Program-made: the position numbers and the translations under genes
Notes under the pieces: model-generated
Database searches by the model: none
What the model was told of the DNA's origin: nothing
Seen by the model: only the letters and a program-made list of their open reading frames with translations
From: Octopus sinensis
Lineage: Eukaryota
DNA: 64,000 bases
Direction of reading: 5' to 3'
NCBI RefSeq assembly: GCF_006345805.1
Contig: NC_042999.1
Span: 135,966,001 to 136,030,000 of the forward strand
Part shown: one piece after another, positions 5,321-55,253 of the stretch
How the letters are laid out: the number at the start of each line of letters is the position of its first letter
Numbering within the stretch: position 1 is the stretch's first letter

Positions 5321-8300
5321 GGTGTGTGAATGTATGTGTATATATTTACAATTATGTACATAGCTGTATTGTAGCAAGTAGACTTTAAGACTCAATTTTC
5401 TTGTCTTCATTAAAACAGCATAGAAACAACCAGTTCCAGTATAACCGTTTGCCAACAACTTGACCCTATGTTTCTCGTTATCCTTCAAATGCCAAATAAT
5501 TTTATGAAAATCCCATTTTTCACCTGCCTTCTCTAAACAACAAAATCATTATCAATATGATAGACAATGGTAGCTGGTCTAACATAGTCACTTCATAGCG
5601 CTTTCTTGCCAAGATGCTATGATATTCAGAATAATCAAATTGATCCATCAAAATTTATTTGCAATAAAGATGTCAGTAAAAGAAAGGCATTAGCAATCCA
5701 AATGATTTGCTGCAAAGCAAATCATAATAATATAGAGATAAAATTTCATTTGCTATTGGAGTCTTTTCTTTGAGGTTCACTTGTAATGATGTGAATGGAC
5801 TGAGGTTTACATAACAGGACAACAACTGACAGCTATTGTATATAAGCTAATATAAATAAACCTCATTTATATAAGACAAAACAACCAGAAATAAAACAGA
5901 TACTGAAAACTAAATTAATGCATAGAAGTACATTATAATACACCTGCGTGTGCATATCTGGACTGTTTCCCAGTAATGTGAGTGTGTGTGTGTGTGTGCG
6001 TGCACATACACAAAGATATATATTTATATATATATATCTATCATGGAAAATGGATGATAAAAGATGATGATGATATATGCATACATATATTATGCACAAC
6101 ACAACACACCTCACTGTGGGTTAAATAAAAAGTAAACAGGTTCTATTGATATACAGGAAAAAGATGGAATAAGTTTCCTTATGAATTGTTAACCACTCTG
6201 CAGTAAAGACATACTTGGCTTCCATCCTCAATCAATAGTGTAATACATTAGCTGCAATTTAAGGCAGTCATAAATTAGACTAGCACCTTGGTGAATAGCT
6301 GAATTTGCATATTTGTGCTTTTGGTGTTTCTTTATGAATTAAAGCAATACTTTTTTCATACAAAGCAGTGTATATCACAGGAAATGAAATAAATTTAAGC
6401 ATTACAAAGCCTTGGTGTGTGAGACAGCCTGACACCAAGCCAGAAAGGATATCTCTACATAATGGAGACAAACTTTTTGTTAGGTTACTGTATGCACTGT
6501 ATAATTAGTGAGACAGTATAATTGGTGAGTTACTGTATAATCAGCCCATACATGGATGGCAAAGTCTTGTAAGACAAGTACAAAGAAAGGGAGCTCATAT
6601 GTTCTATGAGTAATATATTATTTCTTTAAGCTGTCTCAACCAGTTTGCCATAGATGGAGGGTAAACTCAAACCTCTGTTGGATCAAATAATATAATTTGT
6701 TTTTACCTATACTCCTTAATATATTGTTCTTTTATTTCTCTTCCAATCTTTCACCATATTATTTTCTCTCCTCTTCGAGCCTACTCCACAATGCATAAAC
6801 TTAGCCTCTCAGGCCCCACATCAAGTTCCATAGCCTGTTTTGGCATGGTATCTACAGCTTGATGCCCTTCCTAATGCCAACCACTTTACAGAGCATACTG
6901 GGTGCCATCATCAGTGCTTTTTATGTGGCACCATCACCAGTGCTTTTTATGTGGCACCATCACTAGTGTTTTTTATGTAGCACCAGAACCCACATCAATA
7001 CTTTTTTATGTGGAACCTTGATTTTAGGATATCAAATTTGTAATGGTGAGTGTGTCTTCTTGAGTACAGAGTCCTCTGTTATCTCTCTTGGTCCTCTGTC
7101 ATCTCATTTATCATCAACTTAAATTAAATAGTTGTCTATTCTATATCTTATCTCTCTTCTTTAAGAAATGTCTGCTCATATTTAATCTTCAGTAACGTTA
7201 ACACATCTAAGAGAATAAACTACTGAAACACAAAACTCAGACATAGATTTACATAATTTATTTTAGTTTCTATGTGTTGATATAACAAACCAGCTACCCC
7301 TACCAATTTGAATGTGATTACTCACGAAAGTTCCTGAGAGAACTTCTCAATATGCTATTCAACGCTGTGGAGACAGTCAGCTAGAATATCTCTACATAAC
7401 AAAAACAAACTTTTTTCCAAGTCACATCAGATCACCTTGTCCTCAAACCATTTAGTAACTAAAGCCTGCCTGCATCCTTATGTTGAGGAAATTTATGAGC
7501 AAGACATGAACTCTGCAAGCCAAATCACAGGTTACCAGCCTCAGAGGGCAGCAAATCTGTGTAAGAACTGACAGAAAGTATAGAGGATTTATTAGACTTC
7601 CATGCATGGGATAGCCTCGAGATACATAACTGACCAGGCTATCAGATATCATTACACATCGCTGGTCACAGTGCATATTTGCATTGTTTTAGCCGTCAAA
7701 TGACACCATCCTGCTGGCTAGGTAAGCAGGCCAACATTCCCCACTGACTGAAATGGGGACTGGAGCAACGTGAAATGAAGTGGTTTGCTCAAGAACACAA
7801 CGTGTTGCCACTCTGGGAATCGAGCCTATGATCTAGTGATTGTGAGTGTAACAGCCTAACTACTTACCATGTGCTTTCATGGTGCATTTAGTGTACTCTA
7901 TAAAGTGGTTGGTGACATGAAAGGCATCTAGTCATAAAAACTAAGCTAAAATATGGGAAGCACATAAGAGAGGTAGACTCTGCAAACCACATTACAAACT
8001 GCCTGCCTAGGAAGATAGTGGCAGGGAATAAGAAATGATTTAGTGCAGAGGGGATTCTTTACTACTCTTTTCTTTGTATCTTTACTGTTCCAAAATAGAA
8101 CAATCTCTCTAGTGTTAATGGTATGATAAAAAATGCCTTTTCACTGCTGCTGAGTGTATGCAAGACGATATGGACTGTAACAACTGATGTAACCTGTCCA
8201 GACCATGCCAGTATGGAAAAATAGACATAAAATAGTGATGATGATGTTGTTGTTGTTGTTGTCGATGATAATGATAATAATATATGCTTATTTGGAGTTG

Positions 8301-42051: not shown

Positions 42052-42812
42052 TGATACATGCATGCATACATAGTAATAATAATCCATGGATGGAATTTAT
42101 AGACATTTTAATGCATTGCTATGCGCATTTCGACAAATTACATGTTTCTTATGATCATAACCCGTATTCCTGGGATGATTAGAGTACAATCCATAGTATT
42201 CATGAACATTGGGTGGATCATAGTTCATGCCTTCATTTCATCAGGTGATATAGCATTAAAGAGGGAATTATATGGATTGTACTGTAATCATCTCAGGAAT
42301 ACAGACTATGGTTGTAAGAAACATGATTTGTGGAAATGCATGTAGTGATGCATTAAAATATTTAAAAATTCCATCCATAGATTATTATCATTATTACTAT
42401 AGTTATCCTACATTATATTGGCACTGTTTGGTACAACCCCATAAAACTGCTACTGCAAGTTGGTATCATTAGGCTGTAGGTAACATAATAAAATAGAGGC
42501 TTTTGTATGCATACGCAAAAATGCCTCCCGTAAACGAACTTAAAGGATCTCTCTCTCTCTCTGTATATATATGTATGTATGTATGTGTGTGTGTGTGTGT
42601 ATATATATACATATATACATATATATACATAATAATAAATATTAGGGAATAAATCCAAATTTAAAGGGAAAAAATCAGATTTAGGATTAAATCCAATTTA
42701 ATAGTAAAATATTATATAATATTAATTAGAGACAAAACCACTATTTTGCAAAACAAACAAGGAAAGACTTAATCAATACATAAAATTTTAATAAAAAGTA
42801 AAAAAAAAAACG

Positions 42813-42856
42813 CCACTACAATTGTTTCATGTCTTCTAATGACAATCTTCAGGTGG
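42813..42856 (-). ncRNA. Minimal type I hammerhead ribozyme, exact inverted copy of 42917-42960
   Basis: The 44 nt are the reverse complement of 42917-42960. Confidence 0.85.
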
Positions 42857-42916
42857 ATTTCCGATCTAAGTTTCATGATAAAAAAAAGAAAGATATTGAT
42901 ATTTTAGATCGGAAAT

Positions 42917-42960
42917 CCACCTGAAGATTGTCATTAGAAGACATGAAACAATTGTAGTGG
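42917..42960 (+). ncRNA. Minimal type I hammerhead ribozyme (Penelope-like element type)
   Basis: CCAC-CTGAAGA-T-TGTC-attagaa-GACA-T-GAAA-C-AATT-G-TA-GTGG. Stem I CCAC/GTGG, core CUGANGA and GAAA, stem II TGTC/GACA, palindromic stem III ACAATTGT, GUA cleavage triplet (cut after 42956). Confidence 0.85.
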
Positions 42961-43085
42961 CGGTTCTTTTAACTTTTTATTAAAATTTTATGTATTGATT
43001 AAGTCTTTCCTTGTTTGTTTTGCAAAATAGTGGTTTTGTCTCTAATTAATATTATACATATATATATACATATATATATATATAT

Positions 43086-54062: not shown

Positions 54063-54199
54063 TACATTTGACAGTTATTTGTCCTCATCTTGTTTGTTGT
54101 TTATATGTTTCAGTTGATAAACACTCCAGCCTTCATCAGGTGTCTTGGGGAAATTTCAAACCTGGGTTCTCATTCCTAAGGTATTTTTCGATGTTGTTA

Positions 54200-54230
<31 letters not shown>

Positions 54231-54314
54231 CATTATTATTATCATCATCATTATTATTATTCAGGTCACTGTCTGCAATCAAACTTGGAATCTTGGGGTT
54301 AGTAGCCTGTGCTC
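54063..54314 (-). mobile_element. Probable SINE-like element: truncated tRNA-like head, (TAA)n spacer and decayed hammerhead
   Basis: Minus strand gagcacaggCTACTAAccccaagattccaaGTTTGATTgc, then (aat)n, then acac-CTGATGA-a-ggctg-gagtgtttat-caact-GAAA-c. Confidence 0.45.
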
Positions 54315-54513
54315 AATATATCTACTTTAAGTCTGATACATAGATGGCTATTTTCATTTAATACTGTTTCTTTTGAATATAATAACCATATATACATACA
54401 TATATATATTGATAAGAATGGTAAGACAACAAAAGAAAGAAAGAGACCTCGATATTATGTAAATAGAGGAATTTATCTGTAAATGTAATATGTAACAATT
54501 ATTTGGTAGCCAT

Positions 54514-54574
54514 GATAAAACTCCAAGTTTCGGATTCAGAGGTGGAAATCCCCGCCACCATCTCTTCAGTTATC
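54514..54574 (-). ncRNA. Hammerhead ribozyme, inverted copy of 54603-54663 with a partly mutated stem II
   Basis: Minus strand reads gataa-ctgaaga-gatggtggcggggatttccacctctgaatc-c-gaaa-cttggag-tt-ttatc. Core and stems I and III are intact. Confidence 0.65.
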
Positions 54575-54602
54575 TGGCCATCGGAAAAGTGCCCGATGGC
54601 CG

Positions 54603-54663
54603 GATAACTGAAGAGATGGCGGTGTGGATTTCCACCTCCGCATCCGAAACTCGGAGTTTTATC
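54603..54663 (+). ncRNA. Type I hammerhead ribozyme with extended stem II
   Basis: GATAA-CTGAAGA-GATGgCGGtGTGG-attt-CCACctCCGCATC-C-GAAA-CT-cgg-AG-TT-TTATC. Stem I GATAA/TTATC, intact core, stem III ACT/AGT, GUU triplet. Confidence 0.75.
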
Positions 54664-54702
54664 ATGGCTACCGAATAATTGTCACATATTACATTTACAG
54701 AT

Positions 54703-54748
<46 letters not shown>

Positions 54749-55253
54749 CTGGCTCTCCATTGATTATAATAATTATTCCAGATGATTTGATCACTGGATC
54801 ATCATGACATACTGAAAGTGACAAGGCCGGCCTATTGAACAAGAGGTACAAGTCATTTGTGCCAGCTGAGTCAACTGGAGCAATCAGAAATAAAATGTCT
54901 TGTTCAAGGACACAACATGCAACCAGGTGTATGTATGTATGTATCTCTGTATATAAGCAAATAAAAGCCCAGATTGAGGTAGTGGAACAGATAAAATGCA
55001 CACTACATATGTACTACTCCCAGCTGTTAACTGTCTGCTATACAGAAACTATCACCTTACTGCATTTCTATTAAGAGTTACAACAAAATATGTACCTCTC
55101 AATCCCAATAAATTGTTATGTTCCTTATTGTACACTGTCCACTTTTTGTTCTCTATACCTGCTGCTCACTGTTTGAAGCTTACTAACTTCCTACAAACAG
55201 ATCCCTGGATCATATTTCTCTCTCTCTGTATATATATATATATATATATATAG

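What the first reader, a model, noticed from the sequence alone, without database searches (positions are those of the whole stretch)
54410..54703. Second, unrelated hammerhead family with long stem II and GUU site in the same inverted architecture
Seen: hammerheads at 54603-54663 (+) and 54514-54574 (-) in arms of about 110 bp around an 8-nt loop. There is no sequence similarity to the 42.9 kb family outside the catalytic core. Stem II is unusually long for a minimal hammerhead and stem III has a 3-nt loop. Arm mismatches cluster in stem II while the core and stem I are unchanged in both copies.
Basis: partly seen in the sequence, partly recalled or inferred. Interest (0 to 1): 0.75.

Follow-up and report, generated by a model that had tools for sequence, protein, structure and literature searches.

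The report
Penelope-like retroelement insertion carrying hammerhead motifs
This 300-base palindrome is a dead, head-to-head double copy of the tail end of a very abundant Penelope-like jumping gene. Each arm carries that element's usual hammerhead ribozyme motif, and the palindrome likely arose when the element's enzyme copied its RNA from both cut strands of a TA-repeat target, so it is an ordinary example of a known kind.

Summary
Arms 54471-54584 and 54593-54706 are 114 nt long and 91% complementary, with 8 nt between them. Each arm has a complete type I hammerhead core. The + copy passes a strict three-helix descriptor that found nothing in 100 shuffles of the window.

The palindrome is not a designed device. 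The arm is the 3' untranslated end of a retroelement with at least 1,582 first-look matches in this 2.72 Gb animal genome. Longer copies run upstream into an ORF. A related intact 717-aa ORF folds as a reverse transcriptase (telomerase among the top fold matches) plus a C-terminal GIY-YIG nuclease (I-TevI, Z 9.2). It has the RWK, DKT and CxCx5C motifs, the (TA)n target and the sub-3 kb size published for the Hydra clade of Penelope-like elements (PLEs).

Of 29 loci, 17 have an inverted 5'-truncated partner, each with a different junction. In all 17, one arm has the ~65-nt tail and the other lacks it. Hammerheads on the ORF strand occur in 40 of 77 related PLE contigs from other sources, with strong covariation.

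Arm mismatches in stem II are mostly CpG decay. This is a new member of a known kind, of low interest. One side observation: the sister family with intact ORFs has U4-to-C in the core.

The parts
54386..54410 (.). left flank, TA-rich microsatellite (target sequence)
   Evidence: Sequence. Inverted and direct TA-rich repeats I2 and D2. The copies at other loci are likewise followed by TA repeats.
54411..54473 (-). 63-nt 'tail' of the left copy, the long form of the element's 3' end. Read on the - strand it continues from ACAGATA to ...CCATTCTTATCA.
   Evidence: Matches the long 3' end seen in L011, L013, L019, L021 and L023 and reference positions up to 2062. The tail signature was found in the inverted partner of L001, which is this window.
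54474..54592 (-). body of the left copy: a 5'-truncated 3' untranslated segment of the PLE. Its last 8 nt (54585-54592) are the so-called loop; the left copy simply reaches 8 nt further upstream than the right one.
   Evidence: Reference positions 1867-2062 on the - strand. The reverse complement of 54585-54592, gcactttt, matches the family's gcattttt just upstream of CCGATGG.
54511..54577 (-). hammerhead motif on the - strand (C3 at 54569, U17 at 54519). The core is intact; helix II is weakened by a C-to-A change.
   Evidence: core; covariance model of relatives, 19.4 bits, E 6.6e-5 in 361 nt; fails the strict descriptor; list of differences.
54593..54703 (+). right copy: a 5'-truncated 3' segment of the PLE in the short form, ending at ACAGATA with no tail
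   Evidence: Reference positions 1875-1987. 96-98% identical to the other 39 best-matching arms in the genome. 24 of 29 main copies share this short end.
54600..54666 (+). hammerhead motif on the + strand (C3 at 54608, U17 at 54658, predicted cut between 54658 and 54659)
   Evidence: the only strict-descriptor hit in the window, none in 100 shuffles; 18.1 bits, E 1.5e-4 in 361 nt; the fold of the single arm keeps helices I and II.
54704..54747 (.). right flank, (TA)n microsatellite (target sequence)
   Evidence: Sequence; repeats D2/D3 and I2.

Best explanation
The inverted repeat at 54411-54703 is one truncated insertion of an abundant Penelope-like retroelement (Hydra type: reverse transcriptase plus C-terminal GIY-YIG nuclease) into a (TA)n microsatellite. 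It consists of two 5'-truncated copies of the element's 3' end joined head to head, each carrying the element's type I hammerhead motif. The head-to-head form was likely made by reverse transcription primed from both cut strands of the target.

Shown here:
- The arm is the 3' untranslated end of the element.
- The element encodes an RT and a GIY-YIG nuclease.
- Copies are 5'-truncated, sit in TA repeats, and often have an inverted partner with a junction unique to each locus.
- One arm of every pair has the tail and the other lacks it.
- Related PLEs from other sources carry covarying hammerheads at the same place on the ORF strand.

Inferred from published work on PLEs:
- The nuclease cuts both strands of the AT-rich target.
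- cDNA synthesis starts at one of two internal sites, which gives the ends with and without the tail.
- Both cDNAs stop early and are joined.
- In a full element with flanking repeats, the hammerhead would process longer-than-unit transcripts, probably as a dimer or with help from the protein.

At this locus the motif is a passenger. There is no ORF in the window. Only one sense hammerhead lies on any transcript, so no dimer can form. A transcript through the whole repeat is predicted to fold into a 114-bp hairpin that would trap the ribozyme.
For: Repeat family:
- The 114-nt arm has 1,582 first-look candidates in the own genome. The 40 scored are 96-100% identical.
- Most copies are single arms that continue upstream into shared sequence and into an ORF (L062 6091-7161, 357 aa).
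- That protein has 56,692 first-look candidates in the genome, of which 114 were scored at 74-81% identity.

Protein:
- An intact 717-aa frame (L076 2796-4946) gave an AlphaFold model with pLDDT 89.1.
- Its best Foldseek matches are reverse transcriptases: retron RT at E 1.6e-9, and telomerase TERT 6zdq, 3du5, 9swn and 7lma at 1e-8 to 1e-7. Group II intron RT and LINE-1 ORF2p also match.
- The last 158 residues (pLDDT 91.8) match GIY-YIG nucleases. I-TevI gives Z 9.2, rmsd 2.4 A, 90 of 92 residues. T4 EndoII gives Z 7.5 and UvrC N-terminal domain Z 6.2. The first unrelated row is at 4.5.
- The RWK, DKT and CxCx5C motifs are present and conserved in 34 homologues, and there is no cysteine inside the GIY-YIG core. 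These match the published description of the Hydra clade, as do (TA)n insertion and a size under 3 kb (Craig 2021, section 11).

Insertion anatomy:
- L068 shows the textbook PLE layout. In order it reads (TA)n, an inverted short copy, a direct partial copy with hammerhead and tail, the 5'UTR and ORF, the 3'UTR with hammerhead and tail, and (AT)n. The two same-strand hammerhead segments lie about 2.9 kb apart.
- 17 of 29 distinct loci have an inverted partner abutting the main copy (gap -9 to +10 nt) at a different break point each.
- 17 of 17 pairs are one long arm plus one short arm.
[quoted passage not shown] They also match the cutting and extension of both strands and the two internal RT start sites in Frangieh 2024.

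Hammerhead in relatives:
- In 77 related contigs (36-47% aa identity) the strict descriptor hits 47 times on the ORF strand, 3 times on the other strand, and 0-1 times per shuffled set.
- The hits lie mostly 115-347 nt upstream or 91-525 nt downstream of the ORF match.
- There are 36 distinct sequences.
- On a MAFFT alignment of 34 of them, 87.7% of cells pair against 60.1% in shuffles, and 13 of 15 pairs change on both sides.
- L140 has the same helix III, ACUCGGAGU.

Earlier reports: Cervera and de la Pena 2014 already describe PLE hammerheads with a long helix II, and pairs on opposite strands 100-700 bp apart.
Against: - Rfam's hammerhead models do not reach their threshold, nor E of 10 or less, on this site. 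They also miss every ORF-strand PLE hammerhead in 20 related loci.
- The covariance model built from relatives finds the site only with filters off and at a modest score (18-19 bits). It treats helix II as a local insert.
- Local Pfam finds no family in the ORF or in 34 homologues. PDB sequence searches find nothing. The RT and GIY-YIG calls therefore rest on predicted structure and motifs.
- Hydra-clade placement rests on motifs from a published description, not on a tree with reference sequences.
- No full-length copy of the finding's own subfamily was seen. The longest copy seen was about 2.1 kb with a partial ORF.
- The two arms are only 91% alike, although a single event should give identical arms. 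CpG decay explains 6 of the 9 differences, but two template RNAs or an error-prone RT are not excluded.
- Nothing here shows cleavage or transcription.
- The sister family with intact ORFs has C instead of U4, so the motif's catalytic role in this lineage is open.
Confidence: 0.88

Rival explanations
1. A purpose-built bidirectional self-cleaving module. The palindrome places a hammerhead on both strands so that a transcript from either direction is cut.
For: Both strands carry an intact core, and a second family in the window shows the same layout.
Against: 12 of 29 loci have no such inverted partner, and the junction differs in each of the 17 pairs. The - strand copy has a damaged helix II. 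A transcript through the whole repeat is predicted to fold as a hairpin of -184 kcal/mol, against -27 for the hammerhead region alone. Copies decay neutrally. Single minimal PLE hammerheads showed no detectable cleavage in vitro (Cervera 2014).
Confidence: 0.03
2. An animal retrozyme: a short non-autonomous tandem repeat with a hammerhead in each unit that spreads through circular RNA.
For: It has a type I hammerhead with a short helix III, a high copy number and short copies. Retrozymes are reported to derive from PLE flanking repeats (abstract only, bioRxiv 10.64898/2026.07.22.740005; search-listing abstract of PMC7229834).
Against: None of 56 loci of this subfamily (3.1 kb each) holds a second arm on the same strand, apart from one 3,023-bp segmental duplication. 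Copies are 5'-truncated pieces contiguous with an ORF-bearing element. Only the best 40 candidates of each search were scored, so arrays elsewhere are not excluded.
Confidence: 0.04
3. A MITE or foldback DNA transposon with terminal inverted repeats and a TA target.
For: Palindromic, short, flanked by TA repeats and abundant.
Against: The outer ends are asymmetric, with the tail on one side only, in 17 of 17 pairs. The inner junctions vary. Single arms predominate among longer copies, and the arms continue into an RT/GIY-YIG ORF.
Confidence: 0.02
4. The insertion is a PLE scar, as in the best explanation, but inverted copies have a secondary role. Read-through transcripts form long hairpins that are diced into small RNAs against the element.
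For: The predicted hairpin is long and nearly perfect. Rfam scans return only sub-threshold microRNA-like hairpin matches. Many such pairs exist.
Against: There is no small-RNA or expression evidence. The miRNA hits reach less than two-thirds of each family's gathering score (at best 38.8 of 70 bits) and only reflect the hairpin shape.
Confidence: 0.06
5. A chance match to the hammerhead consensus inside an unrelated repeat.
For: The bare core pattern occurs 12 times in the window, and Rfam is silent.
Against: The full descriptor gives 0 hits in 100 shuffles. The same motif sits at the same place in related elements from other sources, with covariation. The model built from relatives ranks the two sites first locally.
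Confidence: 0.01

Closest known systems
Hammerhead motifs of Penelope-like elements (Cervera and de la Pena 2014, PMC4209133; parts 1-2 of the text read)
   Same: Type I hammerhead in the flanking repeat or untranslated region of a PLE. Helix II is longer than usual, helix I is short, and helix III is short and near-palindromic. The motif occurs massively as single truncated copies and as pairs on opposite strands 100-700 bp apart.
   Different: Helix II here is longer still: 11 bp with two mismatches, against the 7-8 bp described. The extra unpaired base lies on the 3' side of helix II (a C before G12) rather than between positions 9 and 10.1. The two motifs lie only about 90 nt apart, head to head.
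Hydra clade of C-terminal EN+ PLEs (Craig et al. 2021, PMC8557442; sections 6 and 11 and passages read)
   Same: RWK motif, DKT instead of DKG, a CxCx5C linker, no CCHH inside the GIY-YIG core, insertion into (TA)n, a unit under 3 kb, hammerheads present, inverted 5'-truncated copies, and a tail at one end.
   Different: The tail here is about 63-70 nt, against the 30-40 bp stated for PLEs in general. One subfamily has about 800 nt of extra TG-rich sequence in its 3' UTR. Placement is by motifs only, with no tree. The paper's supplementary lists of Hydra families and hammerheads were not opened.
Poseidon PLE of the green anole, studied in vitro (Frangieh et al. 2024, PMC11167929; main text read)
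   Same: It gives a mechanism that fits the anatomy. Both target strands are cut and extended, the targets are AT-rich, and reverse transcription starts at two internal sites that delimit the tail. The hammerhead is not needed for insertion and needs the protein to cleave.
   Different: It belongs to a different PLE clade, and its hammerhead overlaps the ORF start rather than lying in the 3' UTR. In vitro, the RT start sites did not differ between strands. Here every one of 17 pairs has one arm of each kind.
Animal non-LTR retrozymes (PMC7229834, search-listing abstract only; bioRxiv 10.64898/2026.07.22.740005, abstract only)
   Same: Type I hammerhead, non-coding short copies, and a link to PLE flanking repeats.
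   Different: Retrozymes are head-to-tail arrays that give circular RNA. No array was seen in the 56 loci examined.
Rfam Hammerhead_1 (RF00163)
   Same: The same catalytic core and the same open helix I.
   Different: It does not reach the gathering score, or E of 10 or less, on this site. The model also misses the ORF-strand hammerheads of 20 related PLE loci.

Membership tests
Hammerhead ribozyme, type I | Conserved core: C3 U4 G5 A6 N7 G8 A9, G12 A13 A14, the A15.1-U16.1 pair, and H17 not G | tested here: met
   CUGAAGA ... GAAA ... GUU is present on both strands.
Hammerhead ribozyme, type I | Three helices around the core, with helix I open and helices II and III closed by loops | tested here: met
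   The + copy passes the strict descriptor, which gave 0 hits in 100 shuffles. The - copy keeps helices I and III but has only 3 bp at the base of helix II.
Hammerhead ribozyme, type I | Match to the curated covariance model (Rfam RF00163) at its gathering score | tested here: not met
   No hit at gathering or at E of 10 or less locally. The same model finds none of the ORF-strand hammerheads in 20 related PLE loci, so this test has little power for this clade.
Hammerhead ribozyme, type I | Match to a covariance model built from hammerheads of related elements only (none from this genome) | tested here: met
   With filters off on 361 nt, the two sites are the top hits: 19.4 bits (E 6.6e-5) and 18.1 bits (E 1.5e-4), covering model positions 1-54 with helix II skipped. 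They were not found with default filters over the whole window. This is a weak pass.
Hammerhead ribozyme, type I | Self-cleavage 3' of H17 | not testable with these tools
   Only assembled contigs of runs whose RNA status is a guess were available.
Penelope-like element (PLE) | Reverse transcriptase akin to telomerase RT | tested here: met
   The predicted structure (pLDDT 89.1) matches RTs, with several TERT structures among the best 12 (E 1e-8 to 1e-7). Sequence-profile tools were silent. A YKDD motif and other conserved motifs are present.
Penelope-like element (PLE) | GIY-YIG endonuclease fused to the RT | tested here: met
   The C-terminal 158 residues match I-TevI at Z 9.2 (90 of 92 residues, rmsd 2.4 A), T4 EndoII at Z 7.5 and UvrC at Z 6.2. 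In the motif YVG...FK.R..NH, the Y, G, F, K and H are invariant in 34 sequences.
Penelope-like element (PLE) | Partial tandem (pseudo-LTR), inverted 5'-truncated copy, and a tail at one end only | tested here: met
   L068 shows the layout. 17 of 29 loci have an inverted partner. 17 of 17 pairs are one long arm plus one short arm.
Penelope-like element (PLE) | Hammerhead motif in the flanking repeat or untranslated region, on the ORF strand | tested here: met
   L062 has the ORF at 6091-7161 and the motif at 7980. In relatives there are 47 hits on the ORF strand against 3 on the other strand.
Hydra clade of PLEs | RWK motif, DKT in place of DKG, CxCx5C linker, and no CCHH inside the GIY-YIG core | tested here: met
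   All were read directly in the 717-aa frame and are conserved in 34 homologues. The criteria come from Craig 2021, section 11.
Hydra clade of PLEs | Insertion into (TA)n and a unit under 3 kb | tested here: met
   All 27 3' flanks printed for the 29 loci begin with TA/AT repeats, some after only a few units; for two long-end copies the script found no flank. The unit is about 2.9 kb in L068 and about 2.5 kb in L076.
Hydra clade of PLEs | Placement inside the clade on an RT tree with reference families | not tested
Animal non-LTR retrozyme | Head-to-tail arrays of a short unit, each unit with a hammerhead | tested here: not met
   None of 56 loci has a second same-strand arm, apart from a 3,023-bp segmental duplication. 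Only the best-scoring candidates were sampled.

The most novel reading that the evidence does not exclude
The sister subfamily that holds the intact RT/GIY-YIG frames, and whose protein has tens of thousands of matches in this genome, has lost the canonical hammerhead core. None of its 26 arms examined reads CUGA: 24 read CCGA, one CCAA, and one has a deletion. The finding's subfamily and 36 hammerheads of distant relatives all keep CUGA. If C4 cripples cleavage, this lineage is natural in vivo evidence that hammerhead catalysis is dispensable for massive PLE amplification. If C4 is active with the element's protein, it is a new natural core variant.
Probability: 0.4. Interest if true: 0.45.

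Novelty: new member of a known kind. Interest (0 to 1): 0.2.

Why it matters
For annotation, this palindrome and the one at 42.9 kb should be masked as truncated Penelope-like element insertions. They should not be listed as ribozyme genes or hairpin RNA genes. The element family probably accounts for a noticeable share of this 2.72 Gb genome.

For PLE biology, the locus is one of many clean genomic footprints of the proposed two-strand, two-start-site integration. Every pair examined has one arm with the tail and one without.

The side observation on the U4-to-C subfamily offers a simple bench test of whether the hammerhead matters for these elements.

Tried and rejected
- Rfam scans of the window at gathering and of 54350-54760 at E of 10 or less gave no hammerhead. 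The only hits were sub-threshold miRNA-like ones that reflect the hairpin shape.
- Local Pfam found nothing meaningful on the 357-aa and 717-aa frames, on three homologues, or on all 34 members of alignment A1.
- PDB sequence and profile searches found nothing.
- The ESM Atlas gave only leads: clusters with HTH_animal, DUF8422, GIY-YIG and RVT_1.
- I first took two arms 3,023 bp apart on C2 for the flanking repeats of a full element. They are a 100% identical segmental duplication.
- Sequencing runs: no RNA holder was listed. All runs are kept as contigs and their RNA status is a guess. Laying four of them showed the repeat family in many short contigs and almost no cover of the unique flanks. 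No starts or ends can be read from contigs, so there is no evidence on expression or cleavage.
- The covariance model with default filters missed the finding's sites.
- Earlier notes of this scan held nothing by place or by sequence.
- A paper on repeats in Octopus vulgaris (PMC13282606, passages only) was looked at because of the genome's size. I have no evidence tying this genome to that species, so I did not use it.
- The organism was not determined.
- Rejected readings: DNA transposon or MITE, retrozyme array, designed bidirectional ribozyme, and chance motif (see the rival explanations).

Full report
**1. The observation**

The window holds an inverted repeat with arms 54471-54584 and 54593-54706. 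The arms are 114 nt long and 91% complementary, with 8 nt between them.

Each arm contains CUGAAGA ... GAAA (54608-54649 on +, 54528-54569 on -). These are followed by ACU-CGG-AGU and GUU. On the + strand C3 is 54608 and U17 is 54658. On the - strand the corresponding positions are 54569 and 54519.

The bare core pattern is not rare: 12 matches in the window against 3.95 expected. I therefore wrote a full descriptor. It requires the core, helix II of at least 4 bp closed by G-C, GAAA, helix III, UH, and helix I of at least 4 bp. It finds one site in the window, 54608-54658 (+), and none in 100 dinucleotide shuffles.

The - strand copy keeps the core but has only 3 bp at the base of helix II, because of a C-to-A change. 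Rfam reports no hammerhead at its thresholds or at E of 10 or less.

**2. What the arm belongs to**

The right arm has 1,582 first-look candidates in the window's own genome (2.72 Gb, 13,516 contigs). The 40 scored are 96-100% identical.

Printing the copies in register changed the picture. Most are single arms. Many continue upstream into shared sequence. Some continue downstream past ACAGATA into a further ~65-70 nt that ends ...TTATCAATAT. Nearly all are followed by TA repeats.

Walking upstream showed copies of up to about 2.1 kb that run into an ORF (L062 6091-7161, 357 aa). This protein has 56,692 first-look candidates in the genome; 114 were scored, at 74-81% identity.

A related copy has an intact 717-aa frame (L076 2796-4946).

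**3. The protein**

Local Pfam and PDB sequence searches were silent. About 825 homologues of around 700 aa exist in public data, at up to 51% identity.

An AlphaFold model built with 34 sequences has pLDDT 89.1. Its best Foldseek matches are reverse transcriptases. They include retron RT, DRT2/9, several telomerase TERT structures, group II intron RT and LINE-1 ORF2p, at E 1.6e-9 to about 1e-6.

The last 158 residues, folded alone (pLDDT 91.8), match GIY-YIG nucleases. I-TevI gives Z 9.2, with 90 of 92 residues aligned at rmsd 2.4 A. T4 EndoII gives Z 7.5 and UvrC Z 6.2. These stand well above the unrelated rows.

An RT followed by a C-terminal GIY-YIG nuclease is the architecture of canonical Penelope-like elements (PLEs).

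The frame also shows the marks that Craig et al. 2021 list for their Hydra clade:
- an RWK motif;
- DKT instead of DKG;
- a CxCx5C linker;
- insertion into (TA)n;
- a unit under 3 kb.

All of these were read, and the motifs are conserved in the homologues. I did not build a tree with reference families.

**4. Insertion anatomy**

L068 shows the full textbook layout. In order, it reads:
- TA repeats;
- an inverted short copy;
- a direct partial copy with hammerhead and tail, running straight into the 5' UTR;
- the ORF;
- the 3' UTR with hammerhead and tail;
- AT repeats.

The two same-strand hammerhead segments lie about 2.9 kb apart.

Among 29 distinct loci found with the arm, 17 have an inverted 5'-truncated partner abutting the main copy (gap -9 to +10 nt). 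The break points differ from locus to locus. In all 17 pairs, one arm carries the tail and the other ends at ACAGATA. Of the 29 main copies, 24 are short and 5 are long. The query itself was a short arm, so this last ratio is biased.

In the window, the left copy covers reference positions 1867-2062 and the right copy covers 1875-1987. The 8-nt 'loop' is simply the left copy reaching 8 nt further upstream. There is no PLE ORF anywhere in the window.

These features are described for PLEs: an inverted 5'-truncated copy adjacent to the unit, and a tail often present at one end only (Craig 2021). Frangieh et al. 2024 showed in vitro that a PLE protein cuts and extends both strands of an AT-rich target. 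They also showed that it starts reverse transcription at two internal sites that delimit the tail.

The inference that this locus arose that way is mine and is not shown here.

**5. Is the hammerhead a real, selected feature?**

Among copies in this genome it decays like the rest. In the 28 arms that were not selected by arm similarity, the change rates were as follows:

| Site class | Changed cells | Rate |
|---|---|---|
| Non-CpG core | 10 of 336 | 3.0% |
| Non-CpG non-core | 109 of 2,324 | 4.7% |
| CpG sites | 65 of 448 | 14.5% |

The core against non-core difference gives p=0.20. CpG against non-CpG non-core gives p=2e-12.

Stem II is CpG-rich. This explains why 5 of the 9 differences between the window's arms lie there, and 6 of the 9 are at CpG sites.

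Selection shows between lineages instead. In 77 contigs from other sources that encode relatives of the protein (36-47% identity), the descriptor hits 47 times on the ORF strand. It hits 3 times on the other strand and 0-1 times per shuffled set, over 20 sets. Hits lie mostly 115-347 nt upstream or 91-525 nt downstream of the ORF match, and often at both ends of one contig.

The 36 distinct motifs have helix II of 4-11 bp and helix III of 3-4 bp with a 2-3 nt loop. One (L140) has the same helix III as the finding.

On a MAFFT alignment of 34 of them, 87.7% of cells pair against 60.1% in shuffles, and 13 of 15 pairs change on both sides. The sequences were chosen with a descriptor that demands pairing, so the percentage paired is partly built in.

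A covariance model built from these 34 finds the 42.9 kb pair in the window at 41.4 and 37.7 bits. With filters off, it ranks the finding's two sites first locally, at 19.4 and 18.1 bits, skipping helix II.

Rfam's type I model recognises none of the ORF-strand motifs in 20 of these loci, so its silence on the window says little.

**6. What the motif can do at this locus**

Only one sense hammerhead lies on any one transcript, so the dimer form proposed for PLE hammerheads cannot assemble. Single minimal PLE motifs showed no detectable cleavage in vitro (Cervera and de la Pena 2014).

The whole repeat is predicted to fold into a hairpin of -184 kcal/mol, against -27 for the hammerhead region alone. 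I therefore expect no efficient cleavage here. This is an inference.

No usable RNA data were available.

**7. Comparison and verdict**

Cervera and de la Pena 2014 already report PLE hammerheads with a long helix II. They found them mostly as single truncated copies and sometimes as pairs on opposite strands 100-700 bp apart.

The finding is a further member of that kind, in a Hydra-type PLE family of this genome. The 42.9 kb family is of the same kind: its arm lies 360 nt upstream of a decayed Hydra-like ORF with the DKT motif in L099.

**8. Side observation**

The subfamily with intact frames differs in the core. None of 26 arms reads CUGA: 24 read CCGA, one CCAA, and one has a 1-nt deletion. 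The relatives from other sources all have CUGA (by design of the descriptor), and so does the finding's subfamily. U-to-C is therefore probably the derived state.

That U4 belongs to the conserved core is from the review passages. How much C4 costs in activity is my recollection only and was not looked up.

Noticed in passing
L065-L077 and L100-L111 (own-genome copies with or next to intact ORFs), e.g. L076 5129-5322: The sister subfamily that holds intact 717-aa frames has C in place of U4 in the hammerhead core. None of 26 arms reads CUGA: 24 read CCGA, one CCAA, and one has a 1-nt deletion. Its helix II also has a UU/UU internal loop. The finding's subfamily and distant relatives keep CUGA.
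   Followed up: partly
17 own-genome loci, L001-L028 (listed): Every inverted pair has one arm with the ~65-nt tail and one arm without it (17 of 17). In vitro work on another PLE saw no strand difference in the start sites.
   Followed up: partly
window 42809-42860 (-) and 42913-42964 (+); L099 756-896 and 1258-3564: The other palindromic hammerhead family in the window is also PLE-derived. It scores 41.4 and 37.7 bits with the model built from relatives. In L099 its arm lies 360 nt upstream of a decayed Hydra-like ORF (DKT motif, 26-45% identity to the 717-aa frame). It has at least 1,093 first-look candidates in the genome.
   Followed up: partly
G000:C2:93074000-93083000 (L031): A 3,023-bp segment that includes a copy of the element is duplicated in tandem at 99-100% identity.
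   Followed up: yes
L062 7161-7980; L034, L047, L048: The finding's subfamily has about 800 nt of extra TG/CA-rich low-complexity sequence between the ORF stop and the hammerhead. The sister subfamily lacks it: the distance is about 820 nt against about 190 nt.
   Followed up: no
own-genome loci L005, L006, L011-L013, L016, L018, L022, L023: Many main copies start within about 10-20 nt upstream of CCGATGG (reference positions 1855-1875). This could be a preferred stop or template-switch point, or an effect of how the loci were chosen.
   Followed up: no
L174 2636-2682 and 2917-2963 (- strand): One related contig carries two copies of a canonical hammerhead on the strand opposite the ORF. They reach Rfam's RF00163 threshold at 35.9 bits, unlike all the ORF-strand motifs.
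   Followed up: no
window 54117-54147 (-): A weak partial match of the hammerhead model: 15.3 bits, E 0.16, covering helix I and CUGAUGA only. Probably chance.
   Followed up: no
window 54185-54262: A (TTA)n microsatellite lies about 130 nt upstream of the insertion.
   Followed up: no
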